Positions 4,772-47,408 of a stretch of 64,000 nucleotides of DNA are shown here, piece after piece. Within the stretch, counting starts at the first letter, position 1. Each line of letters starts with the position of its first letter. The notes below the pieces were generated by a model that was given only the letters and a program-made list of their open reading frames with translations, made no database searches and was not told where the DNA came from. Both the position numbers and the translations under genes were made by a program. The stretch comes from Sphyrna mokarran (lineage: Eukaryota): positions 32,550,001 to 32,614,000 of the forward strand of contig JAGIQG010000004.1 of NCBI GenBank assembly GCA_024679065.1, read 5' to 3'.

Positions 4772-5070
4772 GGCATGGCAAAGTGGTTAGCACTGCTGCA
4801 TTTAAGCGCCAGGGACCCACGTTCAATTCCTAGCTTGGATCACTGTCTGTGTGGAGTCTGCACATTCTCCTCGTGTCTGCATGGATTTCCTCTGGGTGCT
4901 CCAATTTCCTCCCACAGTCCAAAAGATGTGCTGATTAGCATTGGTCATTGCTAAAATTCTCTCTCAGTGTAGCAGAACAGGCATCAGAGTGTAGCAACTA
5001 GGTGATTCTCACAGTAACTTCATTGCAGTGTTGATGTAAGCCTACTTGTGACACTATTAAATAAATAAAA
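4772..5070 (+). mobile_element. V-SINE, type B tail
   Basis: tRNA-like head (GTGGTTAGCACTGCTGC...GTTCAATTCC), V-domain, tail CACAGTAACTTCATTGCAGTGTT...CCTACTTGTGACACTATTAAATAAAT. Confidence 0.85.
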
Positions 5071-7972: not shown

Positions 7973-8150
7973 ATAGTTGGCAGCCTTAAATGATTGACCA
8001 TTATCTTGGCGAGTTCTCCTTCACCTACAAGCGTGTCAAATATGGCATCAGTGCCACTCACTTCTCCAGGTTCATCCCTCTGAAGTGAACAGTTTACAAT
8101 GTAAATAAAATTGGTTCCAGTACAAACAAAATTCTGGGATCTCTTTCCAG

Positions 8151-8478
8151 ACAATCCTACTATAATGATCAAATGCAGTATTAATATTAATATTAAAGAC
8201 TTAGATGTTATGCCCTTATGACAAAGACAGTATAAATGAGATTGTTCAGTAGAGAAACCATGAGCACATAGGAAATGCTTGAAATGAGCTAATTTACTAA
8301 TGCTTTCTGCAACACTCAAAGCTTATTGGGGCGAATCTTCCAGCTCCGCACACCACGGCAATCGGAACAGGCAAGGGAGCGGAGCATGAAAAGGTCCATC
8401 AACTTCAGGCTGGATATTCTGGTTTCAAGGCGAGTGTGACTGGAAAATGCCACTCCTTGATTTTCTATGAAATCAACT
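8151..8478 (+). repeat. Local duplication copy B (unique flank plus MITE)
   Basis: Colinear with 6230-6537; 3' 29 bp identical to 6966-6994. Confidence 0.9.
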
Positions 8479-8524
8479 ACCTTATTTTTAGTCACATGAA
8501 CTATGACAACTAGTAGTGTTTGCT

Positions 8525-8642
8525 CTACATCTTTGGACTATGGGAGGAAAACCAGAGTATCCAGAGGAAACCCACACAAACATGGGGAGAACATGCAGAC
8601 TCCACACAGACAGTGCCCTAAGCCAGGAATCGAACCTGGGTT
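8525..8642 (-). mobile_element. V-SINE fragment
   Basis: ACATCTTTGGACTATGGGAGGAAA...CAGACTCCACACAGACAG...GGAATCGAACC. Confidence 0.8.
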
Positions 8643-9689
8643 CAATTGACTTCCTCCATATTTTTGTCAAATGCTGTTACAAATATTGAATCTAGTTCTC
8701 ACTTGAAACCAAACAGCAAATCAATTAATTTTATTCACCGTTCATCTTTACTTGTTATTTGTTGTGGTTAATTCTATATGATAACAGAATGTAATTTGAT
8801 AGAAGTGGTAAAATCAAATTTAATGTCGTAAAAGATATGAGTTTAAGTGACTTTCTTATGTTAGTTAAACTCATATTCGATTTTGAAATTCTTGTACGCT
8901 TTGTGCAACTTATGGGTCTTAATTCTAAAGTTGTGCTTAGCTTAAGGGCCTTGTAATTAGTTCTGTTTTGTATAAAATATAGGAGAAGATGGCATAGTAG
9001 CATAGAATGTCTCTTTTACAATCATTTAAACTCGCAGCATACAAAAGATTAATTCAGATAGAAATTAGCATGAAGAAGTTAACTCTAATGCTTCATGCTA
9101 CATTCATTTGGGTGGTTTCTGGTGACTGGTTGACATTTGGCTGGTTAGGTTCATTGCCTGCTTGTGGCCTAATGGAGGGCAGATATGGCTGTGCGGCTTC
9201 CATACTGGTGGCTGGATGTGCCTGACAGATTGTAGAGCTATTTTAATCTGTGTGGGTCAGCTACTCACTGGATAAACTCATTCACCCATCAGTGAAATGT
9301 GCTCTCTATTTTAATTGTCTATTGAAGTAGAATGCAGATCATTCTGCATATAACTCAAAATTGAAATGACATCAAGCATTGTTTCTTTCTGCCAATGTGG
9401 GCGGGGGGGGCGATCTTACAACCTCATCACCTGTTTTTTTGGCAAGGTGAGGGGAGGTCAAAAAATCAGGAGTGAGTGGACGATTGGGAATGACGCCTAT
9501 TTTCACACCCATTCCTATTGTACCAAAAATAAATCTGGCTGCGGTGTACCTCACCCAAAATGGGCAAAATATTAGTATGATCAGCACATTACAATCACAA
9601 GTCTCCCACCTCACTTATCTTAACACCTTAACGACTTCGTTGGGGGCAACCTCATACCAACAAGTAAAACACTTGCTCCATAAAACTTA

Positions 9690-10327
9690 TGGAGCAAGCT
9701 TACGGTGTACTGGCCTTCATTCATCGAGGGATTGAGTTCAGGAGTCAGGAGGTAATGCTGCAGCTTTATAGGACCCTTGTCAGACCACACTTGGAGTACT
9801 GTGCGCAGTTCTGGTCGCCTCACTATAGGAAGGACGTGGAAGCTATTGAAAGGGTGCGGAGGAGATTTACAAGGATGTTGCCTGGATTGGGAGGCATGCC
9901 TTATGAAGACAGGTTGAGGGAGCTGGGACTGTTCTCCCTGGAGAGACGAAGGTTGAGAGGCGACCTGATAGAGGTTTACAAGATGTTGAGAGGAATAGAT
10001 AGGGTGGACTCTCAGACACTATTTCCCAGGGCTGAAATGGTCGCGACGAGAGGGCACAGATTTAAGGTGCAGGGAAGCAAGTACAGAGGGGATGCTAGGG
10101 GAAAGTTTTTCACTCAGAGGGTGGTGAGTGAATGGAATCGGCTGCCGTCGGTGGTGGTCGAGGCGAACTCGCTGAGGTCTTTTAAAAGACTTCTGGATGA
10201 GTATATGGGATCCAATGGGATTGGGGGTTATAGATAGGTCTATGGCTGGGTAGGTTTTTGATGTGTTCGGCACAACTTGTGGGCCGAAGGGCCTGTTTCT
10301 GCTGTAGTGTTCTATGTTCTATGTTCT
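9690..10327 (+). mobile_element. CR1 (HER1-like) LINE 3' fragment, open ORF2 C-terminus (ORF 9689-10237)
   Basis: LYRTLVRPHLEYCAQFWSP, LFSLERRRLRGDLIE, FFTQRVV..WN.LP; (TTCTATG)n tail; probable TSD ATAAAAC at 9680-9686 and 10328-10334. Confidence 0.95.
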
Positions 10328-11171
10328 ATAAAACAATACTGCAGGCACACTGCAATATTGAGGGTGAGCGAGGAGATAAATCGCTCTGGGGGGAGAGAGG
10401 GTGAAGGGGCCACGGAAGCACCACAGAGCAACCCACAAGTCTCACCACTAACTTGACCCACAGAGGTGACAACCTCTAGGGTGGTAAACAGTGATGTGGG
10501 AACCTGTGCCAAGAAACTGGTGCTGGCCTCAGATGTTTGCCCATCCTCAGAGTGTCTGGACAGGAGCAGTGGGTTGGGGATGGATGCAATGCCAGATGGG
10601 GCCAGGCGCATTGCAACACAGGACACAAGGTTAAGTGCAAAGGAGGAGAGAAATTGAGGCTGCATACAATTTACTTGAGATATCACAAACAATTGGAGGG
10701 TTGGAAGGTGCTCAAGTCCATGGCGCAGCTCAACCTGGCTGTGAGAAATGATATATTCATCATCCTGCCCCACCAGATCGGAGTGCCTGCTCCTTGAACG
10801 GGGTGAGGATTTTTAAATGGGGCACAGAACCCCCTGTGTTTCCTATTCTCGATTATGGACATTTTTCTCCTGTAGGGACAGAAGGAGGCATGTAAAGGCT
10901 GATGGCAGGAAGCCTGCAGGGTGTTGGGGGTTGTGTGGCGACTTGTGGGGGAGGGCGGGGGAGGGGAGTGGTGCTGAAGGCAAATGCTAAGGAGTTAGGG
11001 ACTGGAAACTTGCAGGTGTCAGGGGCTGAGCCTCAGAGGGCAGGGGTTGTGTGGTGATTTGGGGTGAGGATGGGGTGATTGCTGGAGACAGGTGATAGGA
11101 AGCCTGCAGAGTGTCTAGGACTATGCCCAGAGTAGGGGTCACATAGAGGGACAGTGCCATGACAGGATGCG

Positions 11172-11385
11172 TACTCACCCTTGCTGCCCAAATGGAATCA
11201 TTCAGTTTCTTCCTGCACTAAGTGGCCAATTCGCATGCACTGATTGCCACTACAACAACCTCCCAGGCCGCTTTGCCTTGCACTGCCTTGGAACAACTCC
11301 CATTGGTGGGGAGTAAGCAGTCCCTCCTCTCCTTCACTGCATCCAGGAGATGTGACATGAGAATCTGGGAGCTGCGCTTCAGACA
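11172..11385 (-). pseudogene. Harbinger-associated Myb/SANT DNA-binding domain exon remnant
   Basis: Minus strand reads AAPRFS..LLDAVKERRDCLLP...AAWEVV...*CRKKLND.IWAAR, then a GTGAGT donor; has a stop and a frameshift. Confidence 0.75.
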
Positions 11386-11639
11386 CCCATCTTCCTGCTC
11401 TTCCTACCTGTCTGTCCATCCTTGAGGCCTAGATACAGGTCTCCCATGTTAGGACAGGTCAGCTGCAGGCAGTTTGGGTGAGTCATGTGCCCATTAGGGA
11501 ATTCCAGCAAAATTACATGCACTTTGCTTTGTTGCACTGAAGAGGAAGCCAAGCAAGAGTTGCAGATGTGCTGATGGTGGAGTGGGGTAGGGGGTTTGCA
11601 GGAACGTGGTAATCTTGGGGGGTTAAGGGGGGGGACAAT

Positions 11640-11960
11640 GACAGGGAAACTCTGCCAATGTGGGGGCACAGATGACAGAGTGGGGAATGGAAGGCTTCAT
11701 TGGGAAAGGGGTGAGAGAGAGACTTTGCAATCCGAGGGAGGGGGATAAGGAACATTTTGCAATCGAGTGGGGAGGGGGTCACTCTGCAAATAGGGAGTGG
11801 CATTGAGAGACATTCTGCAATCAGGAAGTGGGGCATAGAGGGAAATTGTGCAAGGCATGTCAGGGTGGTGCCCTTGGGGGAGGTCAATAATATGGGGGAG
11901 AATCTCCAATGTCTGTGCAATGGAGAGAGAGACTGTGTCCGTGACGAAGGGATACTGGGA
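11640..11960. repeat. Degenerate subterminal tandem repeats (about 30-35 bp) inside the Harbinger-derived element
   Basis: Recurrent (A/T)CT(C/T)TGCAAT...GGGAG(T/G)GGG units. Confidence 0.55.
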
Positions 11961-14619
11961 GAGAGTTGTCATTTTGTTGCTTTCTGCACACATGCACGTT
12001 TTGGGCTGCCGGCTTTTGGGTGATTTAAACCCCTTCTCCAGTTCCTACACCTACTGGCGAGATATATCTGAAGGATTTTTTTATTGCGTAAAGTGCGGAT
12101 CTGAAACTCATTCTGGACTGAGGATGTTTTCATAAGATCACCCTCAAGATGTCAGGTATGTCCTCAGACCATTGCTCCCTTCCACCCATTCCCCAAACCC
12201 CTCCTACCTACAAAGAAAAATTGTTTTGTACTGATGCACCACTAGTCAGCATCAAAAAGGCAGACGCTGACCATAATTATAGTTCATTTGTCAAGAATGC
12301 TTGTAATACATTTATAAAACATTAAAAAGATTAAGTTAAGAAAATGAAATGAAGTATTTTCAAAGCAAAACTTCTGCTTTCAGCATTTGTTACTTATTTT
12401 GTTTTTGGAAATTTTGCAGTTTGCAACCTTTTCAAAGAGTGGCCTCCTTTTGTGGCAATAGCATTGCTTAGAACTTACACTGCACCATGGCTGTGGTACA
12501 TGAATACATATCTGCAAAAGCAATTGCAAAGCCACTGAATGTGCAATGCAAGATGTTACCATAAAATTACGTAAATACAAACATAGATATATTGTAATAT
12601 ATAATATATAAACATAGATATTTGTAAATACAAATATAGATATATGCACATAGATTTTAAATAAAAGTGAGAATGCTTTTCAGGCTAGAACCTTTTGGCT
12701 GTATGAAAGTATTAATGAGATCCTGCAGACAGTTTTTCCTAGCTGGTTTAAGTTCCCTGGAATTGAGGCTACTATACAAAAGTAATGAATTATCCGAGGT
12801 TGGCATATCATTCAAGCTCTGCAAAGTATCCTTACTAGAAAAAAAGCACCATAGTATCAATGTGCTAATTATAGTTCTGAAATATTTATGGGTTTTTCCT
12901 ATAACAGTACTTTTTAACATATTCCCTAAGAAAATTAGAAAATTGAAGTGCACTCTCCACTTGATTTTTCAGGTTTAAAGTAATTTGTTTTGCTTCTGAT
13001 GCCTTTTAGCATCCTTTATATGCAGCTGCTACTGAAGGCTTATCATGGCAATTTTTTTACAATTAGAATTCATTACAACATCCCTCAGAATTATTTCCCT
13101 AAGTGGACAATAAACAGGTCCCCCCCACAGTGGCTCCATTATTAACTGTGTTGTTTGGTGTGATGTGATGCTGATTAATAGAGAAAAGGCAGGCACCAGG
13201 TTCAATTGTTAGTCCCTGATCAGCCAGGTCAGCGGTAGCAGAGCTTGTATTAGTGTTTCTAGCTGGAAAGAGTAAAATAACTCAGAGTTCCAAATTGAAT
13301 TTTGGGTTTTACAATTCACAGAGGAATGTTCATTATTCTCTGATCTGTTTATAGTGTTTTGGTTTGGTTCAGAATTGCAATACACCTGGAAAGGTTTATA
13401 ATAAGCATTCCTGCAGTAACTAATCCATTTTTCTATAGTGAAATGATCATATCAGTATAAATGCTTTCTAATTTTGTACAGATGTAATTTATCCATAATC
13501 CAATGTATTGGATTTTCACTTCATCTTTAAAAAGATTCAGGCACTGGCAGGAATTATAATATTTTATAAAAATGCAACTGTTGAACTTTATGATATGGAC
13601 AGAAGAGATGTAAGGTAACTTCTTCCTTTTTCTGCTCTTGACTGACCACAACAAAATATACTTTTGAGCCATTGAGTGTTGTGACATTAAAGAACAGATA
13701 CAAAAAAGGCTATCTTGTAAGGTAAAATCAAGAGAAAGGAGAAACATCTATTTCTCATAACATTCCAAATAATAGTTGCAACAAGTACACTAGATAAACA
13801 CAGACACATACACGCACAAAATCATGCACACACACACACAAACAGAAGAAAGAAAGATTTGCAAAGATATAACAGCACTTAAATTACTTGAAGGGTAAAA
13901 GAATAAGTCACTTCTTTAAACAGTCCTTAAGATGGTGATTGAAACATTGCAGGCCCAAAGAATACTTTCTTTGTTCACTGGAGACAATAGAAGCTGGAAA
14001 TTTCTCGCTTTTCCAAGCAAAGTTTTGACTGAGGTCTTGTAGTTACTATTTATAATTTTCTGGGTAAAACGATTAGCACCATGCCACTGCCTGAGATAAC
14101 TTTGTTTACAAGGGTCCTGGCAAGAGATAGCTTCCCTCTGGTCTTTGTATCCCAGACTGACACAGTGGGCTGCCCTTGTGGATTAATAAGGTATTTTCAA
14201 TCACAAGTTAAGCAGCAACAGTAATGTTGTTTTCCATTGTCCGTACAATGTATTGATAGCTAAGCAATTTTCCACACAATGGAGGATGTTTGATACAATC
14301 TGACCCACTTGTGATAAATTGGCTTCTTCATTCCCTCTTTGTTAGATTACACTTCTGCAGACATCAAGTGGTGGGTGTCCATTATGTTTGAGTTTCTATC
14401 AACATTCAGACAGCATTACCTATAAGTTCCACAAATATCTTGTTGCAGCCTGATTCTGTTCAATGGAAGGTCCTCCACAAGAATGTTTACATTTTAATTA
14501 TAAAATAGAGGCCTGTTCAGATACGAGTTATGATGTAGAGATGCCGGCGTTGGACTGGGGTAAACTCAGTAAAGTTCTACAACACCAATTTTAAATCCAA
14601 CCAATTTATTTGATAGTAA

Positions 14620-14660
14620 ATCTGCGAGCTTTCGACACTATGTGCCTTCGTCAGGCAAAT
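14620..14660 (-). ncRNA. Minimal type-I hammerhead ribozyme in the Penelope terminal repeat
   Basis: Minus strand ATTTGC-CTGACGA-A-GGCAC-ATA-GTGTC-GAAA-GCTC-GCAGAT: full core, 6-bp stem I, 5-bp stem II, palindromic AGCT helix III, CUC cleavage triplet. Confidence 0.8.
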
Positions 14661-14874
14661 GCAGTGTTCTGATCTGCAGAGGCACTCATATCCACACAGA
14701 CAGTTACAGATTGCTGATTAGAATGCGAATCCTTACATCTAACCTGCTATTCAAGTGTTAAAGTGGCTAACAATGTGTGTGAAGGGAATCCTGAGCATTG
14801 GTTAGAGAATTGTGTATTTTCTCCAGACAGCACAGTAAGTGAGGTTTTTTGCTAATCCAGGCAAGTTACGGGGG

Positions 14875-16020
14875 TTACAAATAGTGTGACATGAAGCCAA
14901 GATCCCTGTAAAGACTGTCCTCATGTGTGTGGAACTTGGCTATCAGTCTCTGCTCAGCAACTCTGCGCTGTCGTGTGTCACGAAGGCTCCCTTGAAGAAC
15001 ATTTACCCACAGGTTGGAGACCGAATGCCCATGACTGCTGAAGTGTTCGCCCACAGGAAGGGAACTGTTTTGCCTGGTGATTGTTGAGCGATGCTCATTC
15101 ATCCGCTGTTGTAGTGTCTGCATGGTCTCCCCAATGTACCATGCTTCGGGACATCCTTTCTTGCAACGTATTAGGTAGACAACGTTGGCCGAGTTGCAAG
15201 AGTATGTACCGTGCACCTGGTGAATGGTATCCTCACGTTTGATGATGTCGTCCATGTCTATGATCCGGCATGTCTTGCAGAGGTTGCTGTGGCAGGGTTG
15301 TGTGGTATTGTGGTCACTGTTCTCCTGAAGGTTGGGTAGTTTGCTGCGAACAATGATCTGTTTGAGGTTGTGCGGTTGTCTGAAAGCAAGAAGTGGGGGG
15401 GTGGGGATGGCCCTAGCGAGATGTTCATCGTCATCAATGACATGTTGAAGACTCCGGAGAAGATGTCGTAGCTTCTCCGCTCCGGGGAAGTACTGGACAA
15501 CAAAGGGTACTCTGTCCACCTTGTCCCGTGTTCGTCTTCTGAGGAGGTCAGTGCGGTTTATCGCTGTGGCACGTTGGAACTGTCGATTGATGAGTCGAGC
15601 GCCATATCCTGTTCTCACGAGGGCATCCTTCAGCGTCTGGAGGTGTCTGTCACGATCCTCCTCATCTGAGCAAATTCTGTGTATACGGAGGGCTTGTCCA
15701 TAGGGAATGGCTTCTTTAACGTGTCTAGGGTGGAAGCTGGAGAAGTGGAGCATTGTGAGGTTGTCTGTCGGTTTGCGGTACAGTGAGGTGCTGAGGTGAC
15801 CGTCCTTGATGGAGATGCGTGTGTCCAAGAATGCAACTGATTCTGGAGAATAGTCCATGGTGAGTCTGATGGTGGGATGGAACTTGTTGATATCATCATA
15901 CAGTTGTTTCAATGATTGTTCACCATGAGTCCAAAGGAAAAAGATGTCATCAATGTATCTAGTATATAACCTTGGTTGAAGATCTCGTGTAGTGAAGAAG
16001 TCTTGTTCGAACCTGTGCAT
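14875..16020 (-). CDS. Penelope ORF fragment: RT C-terminal half, Cys-rich linker, GIY-YIG endonuclease (N-terminally truncated)
   Basis: RYIDDIF, FLD, LYRKPTD, C..C.C linker (CHSNLCKTC), NVVYLIRC...WYIGET...RMNEH...AEQRLI; 381 codons with no stop. Confidence 0.9.
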   Translation of the reverse strand: MHRFEQDFFTTRDLQPRLYTRYIDDIFFLWTHGEQSLKQLYDDINKFHPTIRLTMDYSPESVAFLDTRISIKDGHLSTSLYRKPTDNLTMLHFSSFHPRHVKEAIPYGQALRIHRICSDEEDRDRHLQTLKDALVRTGYGARLINRQFQRATAINRTDLLRRRTRDKVDRVPFVVQYFPGAEKLRHLLRSLQHVIDDDEHLARAIPTPPLLAFRQPHNLKQIIVRSKLPNLQENSDHNTTQPCHSNLCKTCRIIDMDDIIKREDTIHQVHGTYSCNSANVVYLIRCKKGCPEAWYIGETMQTLQQRMNEHRSTITRQNSSLPVGEHFSSHGHSVSNLWVNVLQGSLRDTRQRRVAEQRLIAKFHTHEDSLYRDLGFMSHYL

Positions 16021-16539
16021 GAAGATACGAGTTAACCATTGTCTGCATGAAAACTACAAAGAAAATCACCTGATTCCTCTGGAACCCTTTTTGTTAAGGT
16101 AAATTGTCCATTAAATGTTATCTTTTTCAAAACAAAGGTAAAGTTTTCATCTTCCAAACACATTTTACGAGTATAGGCGTGACTACAATGTCAAGAATCA
16201 AGAATCAAAGGAGATTATAACAAGAAAAAGGGATCATTATTGTTAATATCCCTCTTTAATAGATCTTTATTCACCCATTTTCTCATAACATCTCTGAATC
16301 ATTTCCCTCTCTAGAAATCAGCAATTGACCTCTGAGCCTTTTTATTTTGCATTAGATTTTAGCTCCCCTGATAACTTGTATCCTAGTTTATTACCATTTG
16401 CATGTAATAACTATCTTTTATCTTCTTTCTTAAAATTCTATTTTTTGTACATATTTGAACCCTTTGATATACTGACAATTTGCCAAGATCAGTTTTGTCA
16501 ATCCCTTTGTAATCTTAAAAACATTAAATTGATTAAACT

Positions 16540-16850
16540 TGGGTGACATAGTGACACAGTGTTTAACAGTACCACCTCATAGCAACAGGGATCCAGGTTC
16601 AATTCCAGCTCTGAGTCACTGAGTGTGTGGAGTCTGCACATTGTCCCCATTTCTGCATGGGTTTCCTCCACGTGCTCCAGTTTCCTCCCATAAGTTGATG
16701 GGCCATGCTAAAATGATACTAGTGTCAGGAGATAAGTAGAATAAATATGTGGGGTTACAGGAATAAGGCCTAGTTGGGATTGTGATCAGTGCAGACTCAA
16801 TGGGCTGAATGGCTGTCTTCTGCACTATAGGGATTCTGTGATTCTATGAT
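16540..16850 (+). mobile_element. V-SINE type A
   Basis: tRNA-like head, V-domain, tail GGGATTCTGTGATTCTATGA. Confidence 0.85.
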
Positions 16851-17324
16851 CGTCTTAAACATTTTTTGGTAAAGTATACAAACCCAACACACATAACAGT
16901 ATCTTACAAAAATAGCAGAATGTCTTTTTATTGGCTCCAGGAGGTGGATGGGGAGGGGCTGGGGGGAGTATCTCTGGCAAGTGTAGAATTTATTACCCTT
17001 ATACCTAATTGCTGTCACATTTAAAAAACACTATTAATATAGTGAAATGTCCAAGTCAGCAATATCAAACACAAACATTACTTTAATCCACTTTACTGTA
17101 TTGCTTAAATTCCTGATACCCAACATCATATTCCCAATAGAAAAGAAGAAAGGTTTTGAGTTGAACTTTATTAATGATCGTTTTCAATTAATTCTTACCT
17201 ATTTTAAATGTTCTAACTATGTTCTTTCAGCAAAAAAAAGTTTTTTTATTCTCCAAAGGTTGAAAGCAGTACAAGTCAATCAGCAGCTAGTGACAATTTT
17301 GATAACAAGTAGTTAGGTTGATGT

Positions 17325-18058
17325 TTGGTTTGATTTATTTTTGTCACATACAGTGAGAAGTATTGTTTCTTGCACGTTATACAGACAAAAGGTACCATTC
17401 ATAGAGAAGCAAAGGAAAGGGCACAGAAAGTAATGTTACAGTCAAAGTCATGGTGCAGAAAAAGATCAATGGAGATAGGTCCGTTCAAAACTTTGATGGA
17501 AGCAGTGAAGAAGCTGTTCTTGAGTCAGTTGATACGTGACCTCAGACTTTTGCATCTTTTTCCAACAGAAGAAGGTGGAAGAGAGAATGTCTGGGATGTA
17601 TGGGGTCCTTGATTATGCTGATTGCTTTTCCAAGGCAGCAGGAAGCGAAGACAGTCAATGAATGGGAGATTGGTTTGTGTGATGGACTGAGCTTCATGCA
17701 TGGTCCTTGTAGTTTCTTGTTGTCTTGGATAGAGCAGGAGCCATTTAAAGCTGTAATACAAGCAGAGAGAACACTTTCTATGGTGCATCTATAAAAGTTG
17801 TGAGAATTGTAACGGACATGCCAAATTTCCTTAGCCTCATGAGAAAATAGAGTATTTGTGGGCTTTCCTAACTATAGCGCCAGTGTGGAGGGGCCAGGAC
17901 ATGTTGTTGGTGATCAGGACACCTAAAAACTTGAAGCTCTCAACCATTCTCACTTCATCCCCATTGATGTAAACAGGGATATGTCCTCCACTATGCTTCC
18001 TAAAATCAATGACTATCTCCTTCGTTTTGCTGACATTGAGAGAGAGATTATTGTCATG
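17325..18058 (-). mobile_element. Rex1/Babar-clade LINE 3' fragment
   Basis: Minus strand PVYINGDEVRMVESFKFLGVLIT...W...NFYRCTIESVLSACITA; 3' end TGTGACAAAAATAAATCAAACCAAA. Confidence 0.8.
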
Positions 18059-19358
18059 ATATTTTCATTAGTTTTTTGCAGAAAATCCAAACTTTTGTAC
18101 ATCTATCTCTAAAATAATTTGATAAAGATACTGACATTTCAATATGTTCCATTAAACAATTATTCCTTTGCATATCTCCCTCACCCAAGCTATCCATAGT
18201 TTTGTGCAATCACTGGCATAGCTAGACCAGAAAACCTCTTGAGAAGAGATGAACAACTGGGGAATTATTAAACAACATTAAGAAGTTCACTGTGTTACGA
18301 ATCCTCTGTTTTCTAACGATGGGCACCTCGGTTTCCAGGAATGAACATTAGGCAGGTTTTCAGCTTGCATTGGGGGAATAAAAGTGCAGGGCAGCCACCT
18401 GATAAAGGAACGGCTGTTTCATTTCCATTTAAATCAAGGAAAAAGATCAGGTAGTTTCTAACATGGGTGATTGCAATGCCAGTCTTCAACACCAAAAGCA
18501 AGGTAAAATCTATCCATTAAATTCAAAGCATAATGACATGATTTAAAACACAAAAATTAAACTAGCAACAGTGCTTAAACAGGCTGTTCCATCAATGGCA
18601 TAATAGTGCAAGACTGCTCCGGTCTTTGCCTTCATGAACAATTTTAATTTATCATTAGATTTTAGTATCTACTAAATACTCATTCTGATTAAAATTGATT
18701 ATAGAGTAAAATACTGTCGATAAGGTTATTTATGGGAGACAAATGCAAGCCAAGTTGAAGCAAAATTGTTACATGTGATATGGGGGGGATGTTTAAGCAA
18801 ACGTTGAATATATCAGATATCATAGTTTATACGAGAACGTTAGAATGAGGCAATAATCCCTACATTATTTTACAATATTACTTTATGGAAAGTAAAATCC
18901 TTAAAGTGACCTTTTTGGATTGGAACCATGCAAAGCATGCAAGAGAATCAAAGTCAGGAGCAAGTGAATCAATTCATTTGTGGATGATTCAAATACATTT
19001 CTTCCTGTATGAGGTGAACAAAAATGCCATTATTAATTTAGGTAATTAGTTCACTTTGAAACTAATATCCAACACAGTCAAGAACCTGTCCCCTGTGTCC
19101 TAAGATCTGTCTTGAAATCTGAAATCCTAGAACACTGTGATGAAAGGTCACTTCTAGATGTGCTCCATATTGGTTGTTATATAATGCTCTTGATTTCAAT
19201 TATCAACACCTTTTATGCAAAAAAAGCCCAATGAATCAGAAATGAAATTAAGAATTAATTCTTCCTTTATTAACTTCTGCTAGTGATTATTTTTCATACA
19301 GCTGATATAAATTATGTCTGTAATCTATGCACCAGACAGGTCTGATAAATGAGCATAT

Positions 19359-21438
19359 TGGCCTGAATTTTCGCTCAGAGTTGGGACATTTCCCAACTTC
19401 ACAAGCCTGACTTAGGAGATCGTACCCTGGAAATTGGGGTTTATGTCCTAGAGTGGTAGGATTCTCTAGGGGTTGAGCTGGGAAACTGGAGGACAAGTGT
19501 GGAGGCTGATGTTTGGGTGGAAGTGGACAGGATAGTAGGCCTGCTACACCATCTGGCAGATTTTTTTTAGAAAGCTTTAAAACACAAAACGTCTCTCATC
19601 CCTCACACATACTCCATTCATTTCCCATGCCTTTAACCCATGCTATCTCACTTAGACCCATTGCACATTGACCCTCATACCCAGCATGCCAAACTATGAT
19701 CCTTCATCTTAATGGTTTTTATAGCCCTTGTGCCAACTTAGTGCTGGTCCTTGCCCCCTCACCCACCCACTTTGCACATACATCTACCACGCTAACTGAC
19801 TCAGTATCCACCATAGGCAGGCATCAGGAGCCATGCTGGTATTGAATAAAGTTCTAAACATCTATTGCAGACCTAATTAAAAGAATCTCTCATTCAGGAT
19901 AAACTCATTCTCTAAAATTACATTCCTTCAACTAAATAATTCCCTGTAACAACAATTATTCCACCCTAGTGTTTAATCCATTATTTTTAAAAAATTGGAA
20001 TTCATAATCCTACTTCAAATAACTTGGAACTGTCAATAAGACGGTGAAATGGAAAGCATCCCACCGCGACAATAGAAGGTTGTAAAATCAGCCATGCAGC
20101 ACATTTTCAGTAATAACAACTCTCATGCTTGTGTCAACAGAGTGAAATAGTACATACATTTTTCAAAAGGTTTAAAGGGCAGAGCAAAATGTAATGTTTG
20201 CTTCACAATTGCTTTTGACACTTAACAGTTTTGATAGTTCATCTTTACACAGCTACTGTTCCTCTTAACATTTTTAATAGATTTGATAGTTTCTAGTGAC
20301 ATTTTTATCAGTTAGAATCATAGAATCCCACAGCACAGAAAGACGCCATTCGGCCCATCGAGTCTGCACCAACAACAATTCCACCCACGTCCTATCCCCA
20401 TATCTCTACATATTTACCCATTAATCCCTCTAACCTATGCATCTCAGGATATCAAGGGGCAATTTAGAATGGCCAATCAACTTAGCCCACATATCTATTG
20501 ACTGTGGGAGGAAACTGAAGCACCCAGAGGAAACCCACGCAGACACAGGGAGAATGTGCAAACTCCATACAGACAGTGACCCGAGCTAGGATTCAAACCT
20601 AGGCCTCTGGAGCTGTGAAGCAGCAATGCTAACTACTGTGCTACTATGCCATACAGTTTTCACAGTTCATCCTGACAGCTTTCGTGATTGTTCCAATGGG
20701 TTTATGATATTTTTACACACATTCAGGTCCACTTTTAACAATCCGGAAAGGTAGCTTACCTCTTCCAAAGGTATTCCAAAAACATACCCAGTGTGTTGGC
20801 CTCGCTAAAAAGGTACCCAACTTCCCCAAATAATTCTGCAAAGTTTAAACCTGCTCCTACCAGATCAAATGTGCACACATCGACCTGAATTTTACTCCAT
20901 CCCAGGCAGGATTTGAGATGGTGGGGAGATGGTGGGTTCATGAAATTGCATGGATGGGATTCCTTCTGGGATCCCATCTGCCCCCACTCAGATGTGATTT
21001 TACAATGGGTTGAGCAGGGCCTTTGCCTTTATTAAGGCCCTTAAATGGTCACTTAAGACTTTTTTCTGCTCAGCCTCAATTTTCAGGCTGATGGGCACCA
21101 GATACCTATGGGTGGGAAATAAAAGAAATAACATTTCCAATCTCATTCTGGAAGGTGGGGTGGCACTTCCATCAGAAAATCCTCCTGACAAGGGCACTAA
21201 TGCCTCACAGACTGGATACCTATGCTGTTTTAAATCAGCACTGCTTTCATAAAATGTGTATGTACATATCCTGGCCTGGACCCATTCCCCCCAACCAAAG
21301 ATGGTATATGCTGTGCTTAGATGTGGCACTTCCGTATTTTGGCCTCTTCCACTATTTTTGCAGTGTCAGAGAGTGGATTATCATTGATATTTGCTTACAA
21401 AGTCACAGAGTTCATTTCCGCTGTGAAAATTCAGGCCA
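19359..21438. mobile_element. Non-autonomous TIR DNA element (Harbinger-like), possibly composite
   Basis: Perfect 14-bp TIR TGGCCTGAATTTTC (19359) / GAAAATTCAGGCCA (21425-21438); a second TIR-like GACCTGAATTTT at 20882. Confidence 0.65.
20314..20652 (-). mobile_element. V-SINE type A, full length
   Basis: AGAATCATAGAATCCC tail through V-domain to GCTAACTACTGTGCTAC head. Confidence 0.9.
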
Positions 21439-22089
21439 TGCACCTAAAAAAACTATATATCTACATTTAACTATTGACAATACACTGTAAGTATGTCTAC
21501 ATGGCCTTACTATGTATCACACACTGATGTTGTATAGAAATATAGGACTGGGTTGAATTACTTCAGGTATCCAGTCCTGTCAAGTTTCTTCAGTATTTTA
21601 TATGTTTCAATATGATCATCGCTTATTCTTCTCAATTCAAGCTCTGCAAAATGTCCTTTATTGATGTAGATAAGTTACAGCTGTGGGTTTCAACATCTCT
21701 GGAAAACTGAGGTAATGAAGGCTAACAAAAGCCAGGACAAAAGATAACTGAAAGTGAACAATGCATTGACTTTTAGCTGAGGGCTTAGTAACCCGATCTT
21801 TCAGATATAACATTAGGGACGCTGGAGTGGAATGTGAAAGATTAGCCATTCTGCTTGTATGCTGAGCAAGTGTAATGTAACTTTTCCCAAAATTTTCATA
21901 TTTTTGCATCCACTATCTGTCAGTATTATTCCTGTAATATATGTCATTCTTATTTCTTTTTTACTGGTAGATTCTCCGGACTAGCCATTTCAGATTTTTT
22001 GGCAGCATACATCTTAGTAGTTTCCAAGCAGTTACTTCTCTTTTGAACCGAAACTCCTCTTCAACTTTGATGTGATTTCACTCAGTGAC

Positions 22090-22927: not shown

Positions 22928-23135
22928 GGAACAGTGGCACCATAGTTAGCACTGCTGCCTCACAAAGCCAGAGACCCAAGTTTGATTCTCAGCTTGGATC
23001 ACTGTCTATGTGGAATTTGCACGTTCTCCTTAGGTCTGCATGGTTTCCTCCAGGTAGTCCGGTTTCCTCCCATGATCCAAAGATATGCATATAGGTGGAT
23101 TGGCCGTGCTAAATTGTCTCTTAGTATCAGAGGAG
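22928..23135 (+). mobile_element. V-SINE, tail-truncated
   Basis: GTTAGCACTGCTGCCTCAC head plus V-domain. Confidence 0.8.
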
Positions 23136-37960: not shown

Positions 37961-38123
37961 GGTAAGAAGTCTGACAACACCAGGTTTGAATCCAACCAAT
38001 TTATTTGATAGTAAACTCGCAAGCTTTCGACTCTATGGCCTTCGTCAGGCGAATGAGGTGTTCTGGTCCCCAACAGCACACATACCAGCACAGATTGTTT
38101 ACAGATTACTGATCTCTACATCA
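37961..38123. mobile_element. Penelope terminal-repeat mini-insert with internal inversion
   Basis: 13-bp TSD TACCTACAAACTG (37948-37960 and 38124-38136); body homologous to 14565-14720; last 12 bp ATCTCTACATCA are the element terminus in the opposite orientation. Confidence 0.9.
38015..38054 (-). ncRNA. Minimal type-I hammerhead ribozyme (second copy)
   Basis: Minus strand ATTCGC-CTGACGA-A-GGC-CATAGA-GTC-GAAA-GCTT-GCGAGT; intact core, 6-bp stem I, short stem II. Confidence 0.7.
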
Positions 38124-39974: not shown

Positions 39975-41140
39975 TGAGTGGAAAGTCATGGGCTGCCAAG
40001 CACAGAAGCAGGTACTAAAGGAACTGGCTATGGAAGTGTGGATACATTGGCTATCGTCTTCCAACATTCTGTAAATTCCGAAACAGTCCTGGCATATTGG
40101 AGGACAGCAAATGTAACCTCAGTATTTAAAAACGGAAGAAGGGAGGAAAAAAAACCACAGGTAAATACAGATCGGTTGGCCTGTCATCAGTAGTAGGGAA
40201 AATACTAGAATCCATTATAAAGGAGGCAATAACATTACCCTTAGAAAACATCAACAGAATTAGACAAAGTCAAGTGGCAGTCAAGTCATTAGGCAGTCAA
40301 GTGGATAAAGTTGTTAAGAAGGCTTATGGAGTCTTAGCTTTTATTGGTAGGGGGATTGAATTTAGGAGCCGCAGCATCATGTTGCAGCTGTACAAAACTC
40401 TAGTGCGGCCGCACTTGGAGTATTGTGTGCAGTTCTGGTCGCCACATTATAAGAAAGATGTGGAGGCATTGGAGAGGGTACAGAGGAGGTTTACCAGGAT
40501 GTTGCCTGGTATGGAGGGCAGGTCCTATGAAGAGAGGTTGAAGGATTTGAGGTTGTTTTCGTTAGAAAGGAGGCGGCTAAGAGGGGATCTTATTGAAGCA
40601 TATAAGATGATTAGAGGTTTAGATAGGGTGGACAGTGATAGCTTTTTCCTAGGATGGAGAAAGCTAGCACGAGGGGACACAGCTTTAAATTAAGGGGTAT
40701 GAGTTATAGGACGGATATCAGAGGTAGGTTCTTTACTCAAAGAGTGATTAGGGAGTGGAATGCCCTGCCTGCAGCTGTTGTAGATGCGCCAAGTTTGGTG
40801 GCGTTTAAGAGGTTAGTTGATAAGTATATGGAAGAGAAGGGAATGGTTTAGTTAGGAGGGGCATTGCTTTTTATTTTGGTCGGCACAACATCGAAGGCCG
40901 AAGGGCCTGTTCTGTGCTGTATTGTTCTATGTTCTATGTTCTATGTTCTATGTCAACATGGATTTATGAAAGGGAAACCATCTTTGACATACCTACTGGA
41001 GTTTTTTAAGGTGTAACTAGTAGAATAGATAAGAGTGGATGTGATGTATTTGAATTTTCAGAACGCTTTTAAATGAGGCCCCACATTGGTTAATGTTCAA
41101 AATTAAAGCACATGTGATTGGGGTAATACGTTGGCATCGA
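39975..41140 (+). mobile_element. Old CR1 RT fragment, split by a young CR1
   Basis: WRTANVTSVFK...SVVGKILESIIK...IRQSQ | HGFMKGK...VDVMYLNF. Confidence 0.8.
40274..40952 (+). mobile_element. Young CR1 3' fragment
   Basis: ORF2 C-terminus (ORFs 40274-40693 and 40654-40851, 1-nt frameshift near 40642), (TTCTATG)4 tail, GTCAA target duplication. Confidence 0.95.
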
Positions 41141-41949: not shown

Positions 41950-43080
41950 CACACTTGAAGACCACAGTGTCAGGAAGCTCAGTGTACCATTGCAGACAGT
42001 GGCAGAGATTTGCAGTTCTGCTGGAATAAGACCTGCTGCCAAGTGGACCTAGCGGTCATGCTTTATCAGTGGATATCAAAGAACCTCCTGGCATTTTTCC
42101 AGGGCTCTGCCAGTAACATTTGCTGGATTTTACAGCCTTTCATAGACAACTCTTTGGCAGAAGCAGCAATGATGCAAATATTTTCTGCAATGCCAAAGTT
42201 AGAATGAACCCGCTTAGGCTGCTTTCATGGTGCAGGATGTCACTAACTGCACATACAGGGCAATTAAATCAGTCAGGAGTGTTTATCAACTACATGAACC
42301 TCCATCAGTGTGTAACTGGTGTACAACCAGAACAACATCTTTCTGCAAGTATCTTCAGGATTCTTGCATAACTACAATAAGTTTTTATCCAGCAGCAACC
42401 CACTCTCCCCAGAATGTCTGTGCAAGGAGGCAGAGCTATCAGCCGCTAAGAAACAAAGGCTTGCCACTTAAAGCATAGCTAGTGATAATGAGCAGCATGG
42501 TAGCCCAGTGGTTAGCACTGCTGTCTCACAGTGTCAGGGACCCATGTTCAATTCCAGTTTTGGGTCACTGTTTCTGAGGAGTTTGTACATTCTTCCCGTG
42601 TCTGTGGGAGTTCCCTTTGAGTGCTCTGGTTTCTTCCCACGATCCAAAGATGTACGGGTTAGGTTGATTGGCCATGCTAAATTAACCCTAGTGTAAGGAG
42701 ATTAGCAGGGTAAATATGAGATGCTACAGGAATAGGGCCTGGATGGGATTGTAGTCAGTGCAGACTCAATGGGCCGATTGGCCTCCTTCTGTACTGAAGG
42801 AATTCTATGACTCTCAGGAAAACTGAGGAATGAGATCCAGGAGAGTGAACGCTGTGTGACCACCATGTGTTATCAAACAAATGGTTCATGTGAACAGATC
42901 TGAAAATGTCCTCCAGAGTCTCCAGAATGATTATGGTGTGCCGCTCTCTGCACAGCTTTGCGAGTGGAACAAGACGCCTCTTCAAGCAATTCTGAGGAAG
43001 AGGAAGCTGATGCTGCCAACACATTACTGTCTGAGATACCCTCACTTCTGTGAGGTTCATTCAGGTTCCACTAATTCACA
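41950..43080 (+). pseudogene. Highly decayed Harbinger transposase remnant (SINE nested at 42490-42810)
   Basis: NCTYRAIK..VFINY..LVYNQNNIFLQV; later MIMVCRSLHSFA and an acidic tail. Confidence 0.5.
42490..42810 (+). mobile_element. V-SINE type A
   Basis: Head, V-domain and GGAATTCTATGA tail. Confidence 0.9.
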
Positions 43081-44170
43081 CATCTGACAGCCACATGCAT
43101 TTTCCCTATCACCTACCACACTGCTCCGCAAATATCACCAACACAAAACAGTCCTGCATCCATGCACTCCAGAACTTGCTGCACCCCTAGACAAGCTGTA
43201 CCAGTATAGTTACAACATCTACCCTACTATGTGAAAATTGCGCAGATATGCCCTGTCCACAAAATGAAGGACAAATCCAATCAGATCAATTATTGTCCAT
43301 CAGTTTACTCTCGAATATCGGCAAGGTGATGGAAAATGCTGGAGACAGTGCTATCAAATGGCAACTAAACATCAATAACCTGTTCACAGTTGCTCATTTT
43401 GAAGTTTGCCCAGCACTTGGCTCCTGACCTTATTAAAGCTTTGCTTCAAACAACTATCTGTCTAAATGATCCCATTAAAGGGTGAGTATCTGACATGGTG
43501 CATGGATCACGTGTGTCCTTTGACAGGAGAAGCTCAGGAGGGCTCATCTCCTCTGCAGTAAGATGCAGCCAGTGGGCCACTTCATGTAGAAAGCTATGTG
43601 GGAGTTTTATTTTGAATCGAGATTAGAAAACCTGTCATTATTATGCACAGGCCCATATTTCACTTTGTGCTGACATCAAATCAATAAGACTGAATGTTTT
43701 ACACCATATGGTTGTCTGGTATTTAAATCTGTCACCAGGTAGCTGGGATACTCCCAGCTCTATGCACACAGAGAGCCAACTGTCTTTCACATCCTTGTCC
43801 ACACTTGTTAGCTATAAAATTCATGGAAAGGAACCTCTGATTCTTTGTCTTCCTTGATGTTCAATGCTCGCATCACCTATAAGGGAGCAAAGGAGAGGTT
43901 TCTAAATGGAAGTTATGGGCAGCATGGTGACACAGTGGTTAGCATTGCTGCCTCACAGCACCAGAGACCCAGGTTCAATTTTAGCCTTGAGTGACTGTGT
44001 GGACTTTGTACATTCTCTCCGTGTCTGCGTGGGTTTCCTCCAGATGCTCTGGTTTCCTCCCACAGTCCAAAGATGTGCAGGTTATTTAGATTGGCCATGC
44101 TATCTTGCCCCTTAGTGTCCAAAGATGTGTAGATTAGATGAGTTAGTGGAGTAAATAACTCCACTAGTTG

Positions 44171-46752
44171 GTGGAGTAAACAGGAGAGGAGAGGTCACCC
44201 TGTTGGGAGTCTTTTATAGACCTCCTAAAAGTTCTAGAGAGGTAGAGGAAAGGATTGCAAAGTCGATCCTGGACAGGAGTGAAAGTAATAGGGTAATTGT
44301 TATGGGGGACTTTAACTTTACTAATATTGATTGGAATAGCTATAGCTCTAGCTCGTTAGAGGGGTCAGTTTTTGTACAAAGTGTGCAGGAAGGTTTTTTG
44401 ACTCAGTATGTAGATAGGCCAACTAGAGGTGAGGCTACATTGGATTTGGTGCTGGGCAATGAGCCAGACCAGGTGTTAGGCTTGGAAGTTGGTGAACATT
44501 TTGGTGATAGTGACCACAATTCGGTTACGTTCACCTTAGTGATGGATAGGGATAGGCATGAAGCTGGGGGCAGTAGTTATAGCTGGGGGAAGGGTAATTA
44601 TGAGGCCATAAGGAGAGAATTAGGGTGCATAGGTTGGACTAGGAAACTACAGGGACTGGGAACATCTGAAATGTGGAGCTTATTCAAGGAGCAGCTACTG
44701 CGAGTCCTTGATAAGTATGTCCCTGTCAGGCAAGGAGGAAATGGTCGAGTAAGGGAACCATGGTGTACTAAAAAAGTTAATTCGCTGGTTAAAAGGAAAA
44801 AGGAGGCTTATGTCAGGATGAGGCTTGAAGGCTCAGTTAGTGCAATGGATAGCTATAGATTAGCCAGGAGGGAGCTAAAGAGTGAGTTGAGGAGAGCTAA
44901 AAGGGGACACGAGAAGACTTTGGCTGATAGGATCAAGGAGAATCCTAAAGCTTTCTTTAGATATGTTAAGAATAGAAGATTGGTTAGGGCAAGATTAGGG
45001 CCAGTCAGAGACAGCAGTGGGAAGTTGTGCGTGGAGCCTGAAGAGATTGGAGAGGCACTGAACAAATATTTCTCTTCGGTATTCACGCAGGGAGATGTAA
45101 ATGTAGTTGTGGAGAACACTGGGATACAGGGTTGCAAACTGGAAAGTATTGAAGTAGATAAGGAGGATGTGCTAGATATTCTTGAGGGTTTGAAGTTAGA
45201 TAAGTCCCCTGGGCCGGACGGGATTTACCCTAGGATTCTCTGGGAGACGAGAGAGGCGATTGCAGAGCCTCTGGCTCTGATCTTCAGGTCGTCGTTGGTT
45301 ACGGGTATAGTGCCGGAAGACTGGAGGATAGCGAATGTGGTCCCATTGTTCAAGAAGGGGAAGAGAGCCTTCCAGGGAATTATAGGCCGTGAGTCTTACT
45401 TCTGTTGTGGGCAAAGTATTGGAGAGAATTATTAGGGATAGGATTTATAGTTATTTAGAGAGAAATGAATTGATTGGGGATAGTCAGCATGGTTTTGTGA
45501 AGGGTAGGTCGTGCCTTACTAACCTTATTGATTTTTTTGAAAAAGTGACCAAAGAGGTGGATGGGGGTAAGGCAGTTGATGTGGTATATATGGACTTTAG
45601 TAAGGCGTTCGATAAGGTGGCCCAGGGAAGGCTTCTGCAGAAAATGCAGATGTATGGGATAGAGGGTGATTTAGCTAATTGGATTAGGAATTGGCTAGCA
45701 GATAGAAGACAGGAGGTGGTGGTTGATGGGAGATATTCATCGTGGAGTTCGGTTACTAATGGTGTACCTCAGGGATCTGTTTTGGGGCCCCTGCTGTTTG
45801 TAATTTTTATAAATGATCTGGATGAGGGTATTGAAGGATGGATTAGTAAATTTGCGTATGACACCAAAGTCGGTGGAGTGGTAGATAGTGAAGAGGGGTG
45901 TTATAGTTTGCAGAGAGACTTGGACAAGTTGCAGAGCTGGGCCGAGAGGTGGCAGATGGAGTTTAATGCGGAAAAGTGTGAGGTAATTCACTTTGGCAGG
46001 AATAACAAATGTGTAGAGTATAGGGCTAATGGTAGGACTCTTAATAGTGTGGAAGAACAGAGGGATCTTGGTGCATATGTGCATAGATCCCTGAAAGTTG
46101 GCAATCAAGTCAATAAGGTTGTTAAGAAGGCATACGGAGTCTTAGCTTTTATTGGTAGGTGGATTGAATTTCGGAGCCGCAACGTCATGTTGCAACTGTA
46201 CAAAACTCTAGTGTGGACGCACTTGGAGTATTGTGTACAGTTCTGGTCCCTGCATTATAAGAAAGATGTGGAGGCATTGGAGAGGGTACAGAGGAGGTTT
46301 ACCAGGATGTTGCCTGGTATGGAGGGCAGGTCTTATGAGGAGAGGCTGAGGGATTTGAGGTTGTTTTCGTTAGAAAGAAGGCGGCTAAGAGGAGACCTTA
46401 TTGAAACATATAAGATGATTAGAGGTTTAGATAGGGTGGACAGTGATAGCCTTTTTCCTAGGATGGAGAAAGCAAGCACGAGGGGACATAGCTTTAAATT
46501 AAGGGGTGGTGGTTTTAGGACAGATGTCAGAAGTAGGTTCTTTACCCAGAGGGTGGTAAGGGTATGGAATGCCCTGCCTGTGTCAGTTGTAGATGTGCCA
46601 AGTTTGGTGGCGTTTAAGAGGTTAGTAGATAAATTTATGGATGAAAAGGGAATGGTCTAGGTTAGAGGGTCACTGCTTGTTCCTAATTGGTCGGCGCAAC
46701 ATCGAGGGCCAAAGGACCTGCTCTGCGCTGTGATGTTCTATGTTCTATGTTC
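44171..46752 (+). mobile_element. CR1 (HER1-like) LINE, 2.6 kb, 5'-truncated within the endonuclease
   Basis: ORF2 plus 3' UTR plus (TTCTATG)n tail. Confidence 0.97.
44203..46660 (+). pseudogene. CR1 ORF2 (APE endonuclease C-terminus + reverse transcriptase), disabled
   Basis: YRPP, GDFN, LDL, SDH (APE); KSPGPDGI, QHGF, DFSKAFDKV, GVPQGSVLGP; two 1-nt deletions at about 45367-45389; catalytic FADD reads FAYD at 45851-45862. Confidence 0.93.
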
Positions 46753-47184: not shown

Positions 47185-47408
47185 CATAGAACATAGAACA
47201 TAGAACATAGAACAATACAGCACAGAACAGGCCCTTCGGCCTTCGATGTTGTGCCGACCAAAATAAAAAGCAATGCCCCTCCTAACTAAACCATTCCCTT
47301 CTCATCCATATACTTATCAACTAACCTCTTAAACGCCACCAAACTTGGCGCATCTACAACAGCTGCAGGCAGGGCATTCCACTCCCTAATCACTCTTTGA
47401 GTAAAGAA
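47185..47408 (-). mobile_element. Young CR1 3' end (224 bp)
   Basis: (CATAGAA)4 then reverse complement of 40729-40952, with one mismatch by eye. Confidence 0.95.

What the first reader, a model, noticed from the sequence alone, without database searches (positions are those of the whole stretch)
14620..14660. Intact minimal hammerhead ribozyme in a young shark Penelope element
Seen: the minus strand folds as stem I ATTTGC/GCAGAT, core CUGACGA, one extra A, stem II GGCAC/GTGTC, GAAA, then GCUC. Helix III is only the palindrome AGCU, too short to close in a monomer. Established: Penelope-like terminal repeats carry minimal type-I hammerheads with palindromic helix III that are thought to act as dimers (Cervera & De la Pena 2014). 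Inference: this copy could self-cleave after CUC, and could cut a minus-strand host pre-mRNA if it finds a partner motif.
Basis: partly seen in the sequence, partly recalled or inferred. Interest (0 to 1): 0.7.

Follow-up and report, generated by a model that had tools for sequence, protein, structure and literature searches.

The report
Hammerhead in truncated Penelope retrotransposon copy
This is a real copy of the small hammerhead RNA motif already known from Penelope-type jumping genes, one of about 27,000 in this genome; it sits alone in a young, truncated insertion where it is predicted to misfold, so it is likely an inert passenger rather than a cutter of host RNA.

Summary
Observation confirmed. 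A complete minimal type-I hammerhead (core, extra A, stems I and II, palindromic AGCU helix III) lies at 14660-14620 (-). It sits in the 3' pseudo-LTR of a 5'-truncated, Neptune-type Penelope-like element (16026-14531, 12-bp target-site duplication, 1.0% from sibling copies).

It is ordinary: 736 exact copies of its core and 27,320 motifs of this type in the genome (control 3). Stems covary between subfamilies, which points to selection in the active lineage, while dispersed copies decay.

Host pre-mRNA cleavage is unsupported. No host exon or flank transcript was found. The nearest same-strand partner is 23.4 kb away. With 14 or more upstream bases a competing hairpin is predicted to replace the ribozyme fold. 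The family's templates were mostly copied uncut: copies starting at the cut (about 0.6%) do not exceed a control site, whereas 14 of 98 start at the first bases of stem I.

The class has been in print since 2014, and this scan noted the theme before on other DNA (446 notes, 21 in this genome).

The parts
14620..14660 (-). Minimal type-I hammerhead motif; predicted scissile bond between 14626 (C17) and 14625
   Evidence: matches the min-HHR description in PMC4209133
14655..14660 (-). Stem I, 5' strand
14647..14654 (-). Core C3-A9 plus the extra A between 9 and 10.1
14634..14646 (-). Stem II (5 bp, closing G10.1-C11.1) with 3-nt loop
14627..14633 (-). G12-A13-A14-A15.1 and the AGCU palindrome (14630-14627) that would form helix III between two molecules
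14620..14625 (-). Stem I, 3' strand; 14623 is A here and G in 58 of 70 aligned copies (recurrent CpG-type change that turns U-G into U-A)
14531..16026 (-). 5'-truncated Penelope-like element, about half of a ~3.0 kb unit
14875..16023 (-). Open ORF fragment (382 aa): RT motif YIDD 15957-15946, C-X4-C-X2-C linker 15294-15268, GIY-YIG endonuclease 15183-15124
14531..14874 (-). 3' pseudo-LTR (3' UTR, hammerhead, leader); in other copies it continues directly into the ORF start codon, whose A is 14531, 94 nt downstream of the scissile bond
14531..14566 (-). Optional ~35-nt 'tail' (long-tail end); about half of the family's ends stop near 14566 instead
14519..14530 (.). Target-site duplication, copy at the 3' end (12 bp)
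16023..16034 (.). Target-site duplication, copy at the 5' end (12 bp, identical); 16023-16026 is also a 4-nt microhomology with the element
37974..38113 (-). 140-bp stub of a different subfamily (82% identical) with a second core-intact hammerhead at 38054-38015; nearest possible same-strand partner, 23.4 kb upstream

Best explanation
The motif is a minimal hammerhead carried in the end repeat of a young, 5'-truncated Penelope-like retrotransposon copy, and this lone copy is likely inert. In the active lineage the same motif lies 94 nt upstream of the start codon and again after the ORF (shown). It is inferred to cut tandem or read-through element transcripts slowly, when two motifs pair through their AGCU palindromes or when the element's own protein helps it fold. 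Reverse transcription is inferred to start in the tail downstream of the motif and usually to run through it uncut. This copy shows such a continuous template: it runs from the tail through the scissile bond 1.4 kb into the ORF, then was joined to the target by a 4-nt microhomology. After insertion the motif is expected to decay neutrally like its siblings.
For: Element anatomy, target-site duplication and 1.0% divergence. 736 exact 28-mers, control 0; 27,320 generic motifs, control 3. Across 16 motifs from several subfamilies, 93.1% of cells pair and 4 of 9 pairs change on both sides; covariation score 0.478 against 0.320 shuffled (0 of 500) and at most 0.219 for slid controls. 30 of 91 sampled copies that span the motif have a broken core. 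28 of 32 copies that join a pseudo-LTR to the ORF start run through the scissile bond, and none starts exactly at it. Stem pairing for this copy is 0.55-0.75 with 6-8 nt upstream of the core and 0.01 or less with 14 nt or more. The AGCU duplex is -2.5 kcal/mol. In print: a monomer of a schistosome min-HHR shows no cleavage and dimers little (PMC4209133); the anole element's HHR cleaves only with the element's protein, is not needed for insertion in vitro, and no RNA-seq reads end at its cut site (PMC11167929).
Against: No cleavage was measured. The change at 14623 makes this copy's stem I stronger than that of majority-type siblings (pairing 0.55-0.68 against 0.02-0.25 in the short context). 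ViennaRNA ignores the core's tertiary energy, co-transcriptional folding and proteins. Cleavage followed by re-ligation or circularisation would leave the same DNA sequence, so 'uncut template' cannot be told from 'cut and re-joined'. Core invariance in alignment A1 is partly built in, because 14 of its 16 rows were found with a core pattern and the two window rows with a core scan; only the stem covariation is informative, and relatedness inflates it (the count of pairs changed on both sides was reached by 170 of 500 shuffles). A host gene with very long introns could have been missed.
Confidence: 0.85

Rival explanations
1. One reading: this copy cleaves a minus-strand host pre-mRNA by pairing with a partner motif, for example the one at 38054-38015 in the same transcript, or an element RNA in trans.
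For: Both window motifs are core-intact, lie on the same strand and share the AGCU palindrome; all 27,320 counted motifs share it by construction of the pattern. The family is present in RNA-library contigs. This copy's stem I is strengthened.
Against: No host exon was found (0 of 385 ORFs pass a Pfam cutoff). No contig covers the unique flanks (contigs, weak). The partner is 23.4 kb away. The predicted heterodimer and homodimer minimum-energy folds are not the active topology (homodimer active-like -18.7 against -25.1 kcal/mol). The fold is predicted lost in read-through context. No further motif that fits was seen on the minus strand within 20 kb on either side of the window.
Confidence: 0.04
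2. The ribozyme routinely cuts the element RNA to unit length; the pieces are ligated into circles or bridged by template jumps, which gives the partial tandems and restores the cut site in every copy (model proposed in PMC4209133).
For: Upstream pseudo-LTRs of variable length, up to about 950 nt, precede the ORF, as more-than-unit copying would give. 7 of 10 loci recovered by a 'starts at the cut' pattern truly start at the scissile bond, 4 of them on both arms within 1 nt. Stem covariation shows selection.
Against: The estimated share of copies that start at the cut (about 25 of 3,981, 0.6%) is not above that at a control position 7 nt downstream (about 18-38 of at least 4,964, 0.4-0.8%). 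Arms of fold-back insertions often start at similar places anyway. Read-through of tandem donors explains the variable extensions equally well. The anole HHR was dispensable in vitro.
Confidence: 0.25
3. The motif is kept for folding or protein binding at the 5' end of the element RNA, or as a hitch-hiker, and not for cleavage.
For: 14 of 98 sampled ends start within 14657-14662, at the first bases of stem I, against 0.7 expected. PMC8557442 notes that Naiad elements thrive without canonical HHRs and that HHRs may simply parasitise PLEs.
Against: Catalytic positions and the helix-III palindrome are shared by tens of thousands of copies from many subfamilies whose stems differ. The anole motif does cleave, in a core-dependent way.
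Confidence: 0.12

Closest known systems
Minimal hammerheads (min-HHR) in pseudo-LTRs of metazoan Penelope-like elements (Cervera and De la Pena 2014, PMC4209133; parts 1-2 of 4 read)
   Same: Type I topology, full core, one extra nucleotide between 9 and 10.1, G10.1-C11.1, palindromic 15.2-16.2 with no loop 3, location in the pLTR, thousands of dispersed single copies in several consensus families, pairs on opposite strands 100-700 bp apart.
   Different: Stem II is 5 bp and stem I 6 bp here (7-8 and 4-5 bp in the schistosome families). The count here, 27,320 with a strict pattern, exceeds the about 4,000 (coelacanth) and 9,000 (Xenopus) given there. Cartilaginous fishes are not named in the parts read.
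Neptune-type EN+ Penelope-like elements (definition as in PMC8557442, passages read)
   Same: C-terminal GIY-YIG with two internal cysteines, CX2-5CxxC linker motif (here C-X4-C-X2-C), 5' truncation, partial tandems, inverted 5' arm, 30-40 bp tail on one end only.
   Different: No tree was built, so Nematis is not excluded by phylogeny. No microsatellite target at this insertion; it has a clean 12-bp duplication.
Poseidon element PAc of the green anole (Frangieh et al. 2024, PMC11167929; parts 1-2 of 4 read)
   Same: HHR near the ORF start; two 3' ends about 35 nt apart that define the tail; templates mostly unprocessed at the HHR.
   Different: In PAc the ORF starts in stem II and reverse transcription starts inside the ORF; here the start codon is 94 nt downstream of the cut and the long tail ends at it. 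Penelope/Poseidon elements lack the linker zinc-finger that this element has.
Non-LTR retrozymes (bioRxiv 10.64898/2026.07.22.740005; part 1 of 5 and passages read)
   Same: Type I HHR, related to PLE pLTRs, reported in one chondrichthyan.
   Different: Retrozymes are non-coding tandem arrays with a motif in each unit; this is a single motif in a coding, non-tandem copy.

Membership tests
PLE minimal type-I hammerhead (min-HHR) | Complete core C3 U4 G5 A6 N7 G8 A9 / G12 A13 A14 A15.1 / U16.1 H17 | tested here: met
PLE minimal type-I hammerhead (min-HHR) | [quoted passage not shown] | tested here: met
   A14647; G14646-C14634; G-C in 16 of 16 rows, fixed by the search pattern in 14 of them
PLE minimal type-I hammerhead (min-HHR) | Palindromic helix III without a closing loop | tested here: met
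   AGCU 14630-14627
PLE minimal type-I hammerhead (min-HHR) | Stems I and II with compensatory changes between families | tested here: met
   4 of 9 pairs change on both sides; 93.1% of cells paired against 84.4% shuffled and 17-43% slid
PLE minimal type-I hammerhead (min-HHR) | Located in the pLTR of a PLE | tested here: met
   downstream of the GIY-YIG ORF here; upstream of the ORF start, with the whole motif region present, in 24 of 32 junction copies
PLE minimal type-I hammerhead (min-HHR) | Self-cleavage as a dimer or with protein help | not testable with these tools
   needs an assay; the genomic footprint at the cut site was not above a control
Rfam hammerhead families | Match to a hammerhead covariance model | tested here: not met
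   none at E<=10; I infer that the missing helix III explains this
EN+ Penelope-like element, Neptune type | RT followed by a C-terminal GIY-YIG endonuclease with CCHH residues | tested here: met
   YIDD motif; Pfam GIY-YIG 22.9 bits, cutoff 22.6; cysteines and histidines seen in the translation. No Pfam RT hit on this truncated fragment.
EN+ Penelope-like element, Neptune type | CX2-5CxxC motif in the RT-EN linker | tested here: met
   15294-15268; definition from PMC8557442
EN+ Penelope-like element, Neptune type | Partial tandems, inverted 5' arms, one-sided 30-40 bp tail in the family | tested here: met
   34 of 36 divergent pairs have the long tail on exactly one arm, 2 on neither, none on both (one pair counted twice through a duplicated locus); partial tandems
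EN+ Penelope-like element, Neptune type | Placement in the Neptune group by RT phylogeny | not tested
   no reference PLE proteins were fetched
Non-LTR retrozyme | Non-coding tandem units, each with an HHR | tested here: not met
   single motif in a coding fragment
Domesticated intronic or UTR hammerhead (such as RECK, Clec2) | Lies in a host gene and is conserved at the orthologous site | tested here: inconclusive
   no host exon found; insertion only 1.0% diverged; orthologous loci not available

The most novel reading that the evidence does not exclude
The ribozyme is gated by the RNA's 5' end. The element's own transcript starts at the first bases of stem I, where 14 of 98 genomic copies begin, and only there can the hammerhead fold. 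With more upstream sequence, the 5' strand of stem I pairs with the 5' strand of stem II and buries the core. This would switch the ribozyme on in the element's RNA and off in read-through and host pre-mRNAs, and would explain how a vertebrate genome tolerates 27,000 core-intact hammerheads.
Probability: 0.12. Interest if true: 0.55.

Novelty: new member of a known kind. Interest (0 to 1): 0.16.

Why it matters
The single copy matters little. The family is useful as material: it is young (copies about 2% apart), has thousands of copies and many subfamilies with covarying stems, so the open question of what PLE hammerheads do can be put to it. The genomic record here says that most templates were copied without a lasting cut, and it points to a sharp RNA start at stem I that can be tested by cap sequencing and by cleavage assays with and without upstream sequence.

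Tried and rejected
Rfam scan: no hammerhead family matched.

Host gene: 385 of 385 non-repeat stop-to-stop ORFs of 45 aa or more were scanned against Pfam; 7 weak hits, all below the curated cutoffs, rejected as chance. Short exons, exons without a domain and non-coding genes would be missed, and the 20 kb fetched on each side were scanned for motifs only.

RNA: the run search gave 3 runs with small shares (0.05-0.10), all kept as contigs. Laid on 10400-16500 they cover only the element (8 of 30 bins) and show mostly other copies' letters. They show no strand, no ends and no transcription of this locus; the empty flanks are weak evidence.

Cleavage footprint: 10 pattern hits, of which 7 true starts and 3 four-base deletions. 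Controls: 6 hits at -2 (some may be cut-site starts by chance) and 13 at +7, 7 of them hairpins at a local palindrome. After scaling by my estimates of the chance that flanking letters fit each pattern (0.28, 0.45, 0.34), there is no clear excess at the cut. In the 99-end sample one event (a duplicated locus) starts 1 nt after the cut.

My first guess of a Poseidon-type element was dropped when the linker zinc-finger was seen. An 8-nt palindrome upstream (14680-14673) was rejected as a second dimer site because other subfamilies lack it. A first anchor pattern held a letter private to this copy and gave only 7 hits. Lunse et al. (PMC5785218) is not held and is known here only through a review passage. 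The sequence look-up in earlier findings gave nothing, nor did the look-up near this window.

Full report
Observation. The predicted cut lies between 14626 and 14625. A motif of this quality appeared in 1 of 200 shuffled windows. The same scan found a second motif on the same strand at 38054-38015. Rfam matched neither hammerhead model to the region 8000-22000.

The host element. The motif lies about 215 nt downstream of an open 382-aa frame (16023-14875) with the RT motif YIDD, a C-X4-C-X2-C linker and a GIY-YIG endonuclease. The linker motif marks Neptune and Nematis elements and is absent from Penelope/Poseidon (PMC8557442, passages); no tree was built. The copy runs from 16026 to 14531 between identical 12-bp duplications (16034-16023 and 14530-14519), with a 4-nt microhomology at the 5' joint. 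It differs from the majority of close copies at 15 of 1497 places, 6 of them CpG-type. A longer copy (L035) shows a unit of about 3.0 kb whose start codon follows the tail directly, so in the full element the motif sits 94 nt upstream of the start codon and again after the ORF. This copy has lost about half of the unit and has one motif only.

How common it is. The 28-nt core and stem II occur 736 times exactly (control 0). A generic pattern with the same core and palindrome occurs 27,320 times (control 3), about one per 100 kb. Subfamilies differ in stems I and II and in residue 17. On 16 motifs picked to span subfamilies (2 from the window, 14 of the 29 printed), 93.1% of cells pair, 4 of 9 pairs change on both sides, and the covariation score is 0.478 against 0.320 for shuffles (0 of 500) and at most 0.219 for slid partners. 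The number of pairs with changes on both sides was reached by 170 of 500 shuffles, and the rows were chosen by a core pattern, so the core's invariance there is not evidence. In an unselected sample anchored downstream of the motif, 61 of 91 copies that span it keep an intact core and 30 do not. I read this as selection in the transposing lineage and decay after insertion (inference).

Would this copy cut? In the 45-nt minimal context stems I and II pair with probability 0.62-0.76. Pairing falls from 0.68 with 6 nt upstream of the core to 0.55 (8 nt), 0.13 (12 nt) and 0.01 or less (14 nt and more), because the 5' strand of stem I pairs with the 5' strand of stem II. Two majority-type siblings reach only 0.02-0.25 even in the short context; this copy does better because of the G-to-A change at 14623, seen in 12 of 70 aligned copies. 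The median over 77 distinct motifs was 0.07 in the short context and 0 in longer ones. The AGCU duplex is worth -2.5 kcal/mol, and the active-like homodimer (-18.7) is less stable than the minimum-energy dimer (-25.1). These are equilibrium predictions without tertiary contacts or proteins. In print, a schistosome min-HHR did not cleave as a monomer and cleaved poorly as a dimer (PMC4209133), and the anole Poseidon HHR cleaved only with the element's protein and was not needed for insertion in vitro (PMC11167929).

Is there a host transcript? None was found. 0 of 385 non-repeat ORFs in the window pass a Pfam cutoff. Contigs of three runs cover only the repeat, not the unique flanks. Both tests are weak. 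The only same-strand partner seen is 23.4 kb away and belongs to another subfamily; the 20 kb on each side of the window gave no minus-strand motif.

What the family's ends record. Earlier AI notes suggested that copies start at the cut site or at the first letters of the motif, so I tested both. Among 99 ends from the first 68 Mb of one contig (98 after merging a duplicated locus), 61 run 129 nt or more upstream of the anchor. Of the 37 shorter ones, 14 start at 14657-14662 and 9 at 14670-14675, against 0.7 expected per 6 nt from the other 14. The windows were chosen after looking, and some starts are two arms of one insertion. One event starts 1 nt after the cut. Genome-wide, 7 of 10 pattern hits truly start at the scissile bond, 4 of them on both arms. 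Scaled up, this is about 25 of 3,981 copies (0.6%), no more than at a control position 7 nt downstream (13 hits, about 18-38 of at least 4,964). Of 32 copies that join a pseudo-LTR to the ORF start, 28 pass through the bond, 4 start downstream of it and none starts on it (chosen by likeness to L035). So the stem-I start is reproduced here, and the cleavage footprint is not shown. Of 36 divergent pairs, 34 carry the long tail on exactly one arm, the layout described in PMC8557442.

Mechanism. Shown: anatomy, copy number, stem covariation, a template continuous across the bond, and the clusters of 5' ends. Inferred: reverse transcription starts in the tail; the ribozyme works slowly as a dimer or with the element's protein on tandem transcripts; this lone copy does not fold or cut in a long transcript. 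Not separable from DNA alone: uncut templates versus cut and re-ligated ones.

Novelty. The class is published for fishes, coelacanth, Xenopus and reptiles. A search for 'hammerhead ribozyme', 'shark' and 'Penelope' gave one paper, which uses 'shark' only for the shape. A search for Penelope, hammerhead, transcription start and pLTR gave 3 holders, 2 listed, neither seen to describe 5'-end gating (I read passages of one for other terms and only the listing of the other). Subscription papers are not searched, and Lunse et al. was not available. A 2026 preprint reports retrozymes in one chondrichthyan. The scan itself holds 446 notes on this theme in at least 28 genomes and 21 in this genome. 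Verdict: a real, ordinary new member of a known kind; interest 0.16.

Noticed in passing
window 37974-38113 (-): 140-bp stub of a second subfamily with a core-intact hammerhead (U at position 17, 3-bp stem II); it starts at about the same place as many siblings, and 2,962 candidates were seen genome-wide.
   Followed up: partly
window 52365-52428 (-): Tail-only Penelope remnant whose two short arms form a small fold-back; no hammerhead.
   Followed up: no
G000 copies, equivalent of window 14657-14662 and 14670-14675: Two sharp clusters of 5' ends (14 and 9 of 98) upstream of the core; candidates for the element's RNA start.
   Followed up: partly
L239, L243, L245, L247: Insertions in which both arms start at the scissile bond within 1 nt; in L245 and L247 a run of A precedes the start.
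   Followed up: partly
L240, L241, L244: The same 4-nt deletion across the scissile bond in three copies of different subfamilies; a 2-nt microhomology could explain it.
   Followed up: no
L144, L187: Short duplications of about 11 nt that span the cut site, possibly template slips or jumps.
   Followed up: no
L160; L254, L256, L258, L263-L266: Hairpin insertions folded exactly at short palindromes, one at the AGCT of helix III and seven at a site 7 nt downstream of the cut.
   Followed up: partly
L121 and L123: The same two-armed insertion with the same flank at two places 0.84 Mb apart on one contig: a segmental duplication.
   Followed up: no
window 44155-46660 (+), 9668-10330 (+), 40130-40959 (+): CR1-type LINE copies by their translations (label recalled, not searched); the first is long, with endonuclease and RT in two frames.
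   Followed up: no
window 40729-40952 and 47185-47408: 224-bp perfect inverted repeat 6.2 kb apart within LINE ends; a very recent copy, a conversion or an assembly artefact.
   Followed up: no
window, e.g. 4782-4923, 16558-16699, 22941-23082, 42507-42648: Many copies of a SINE-like repeat on both strands.
   Followed up: no
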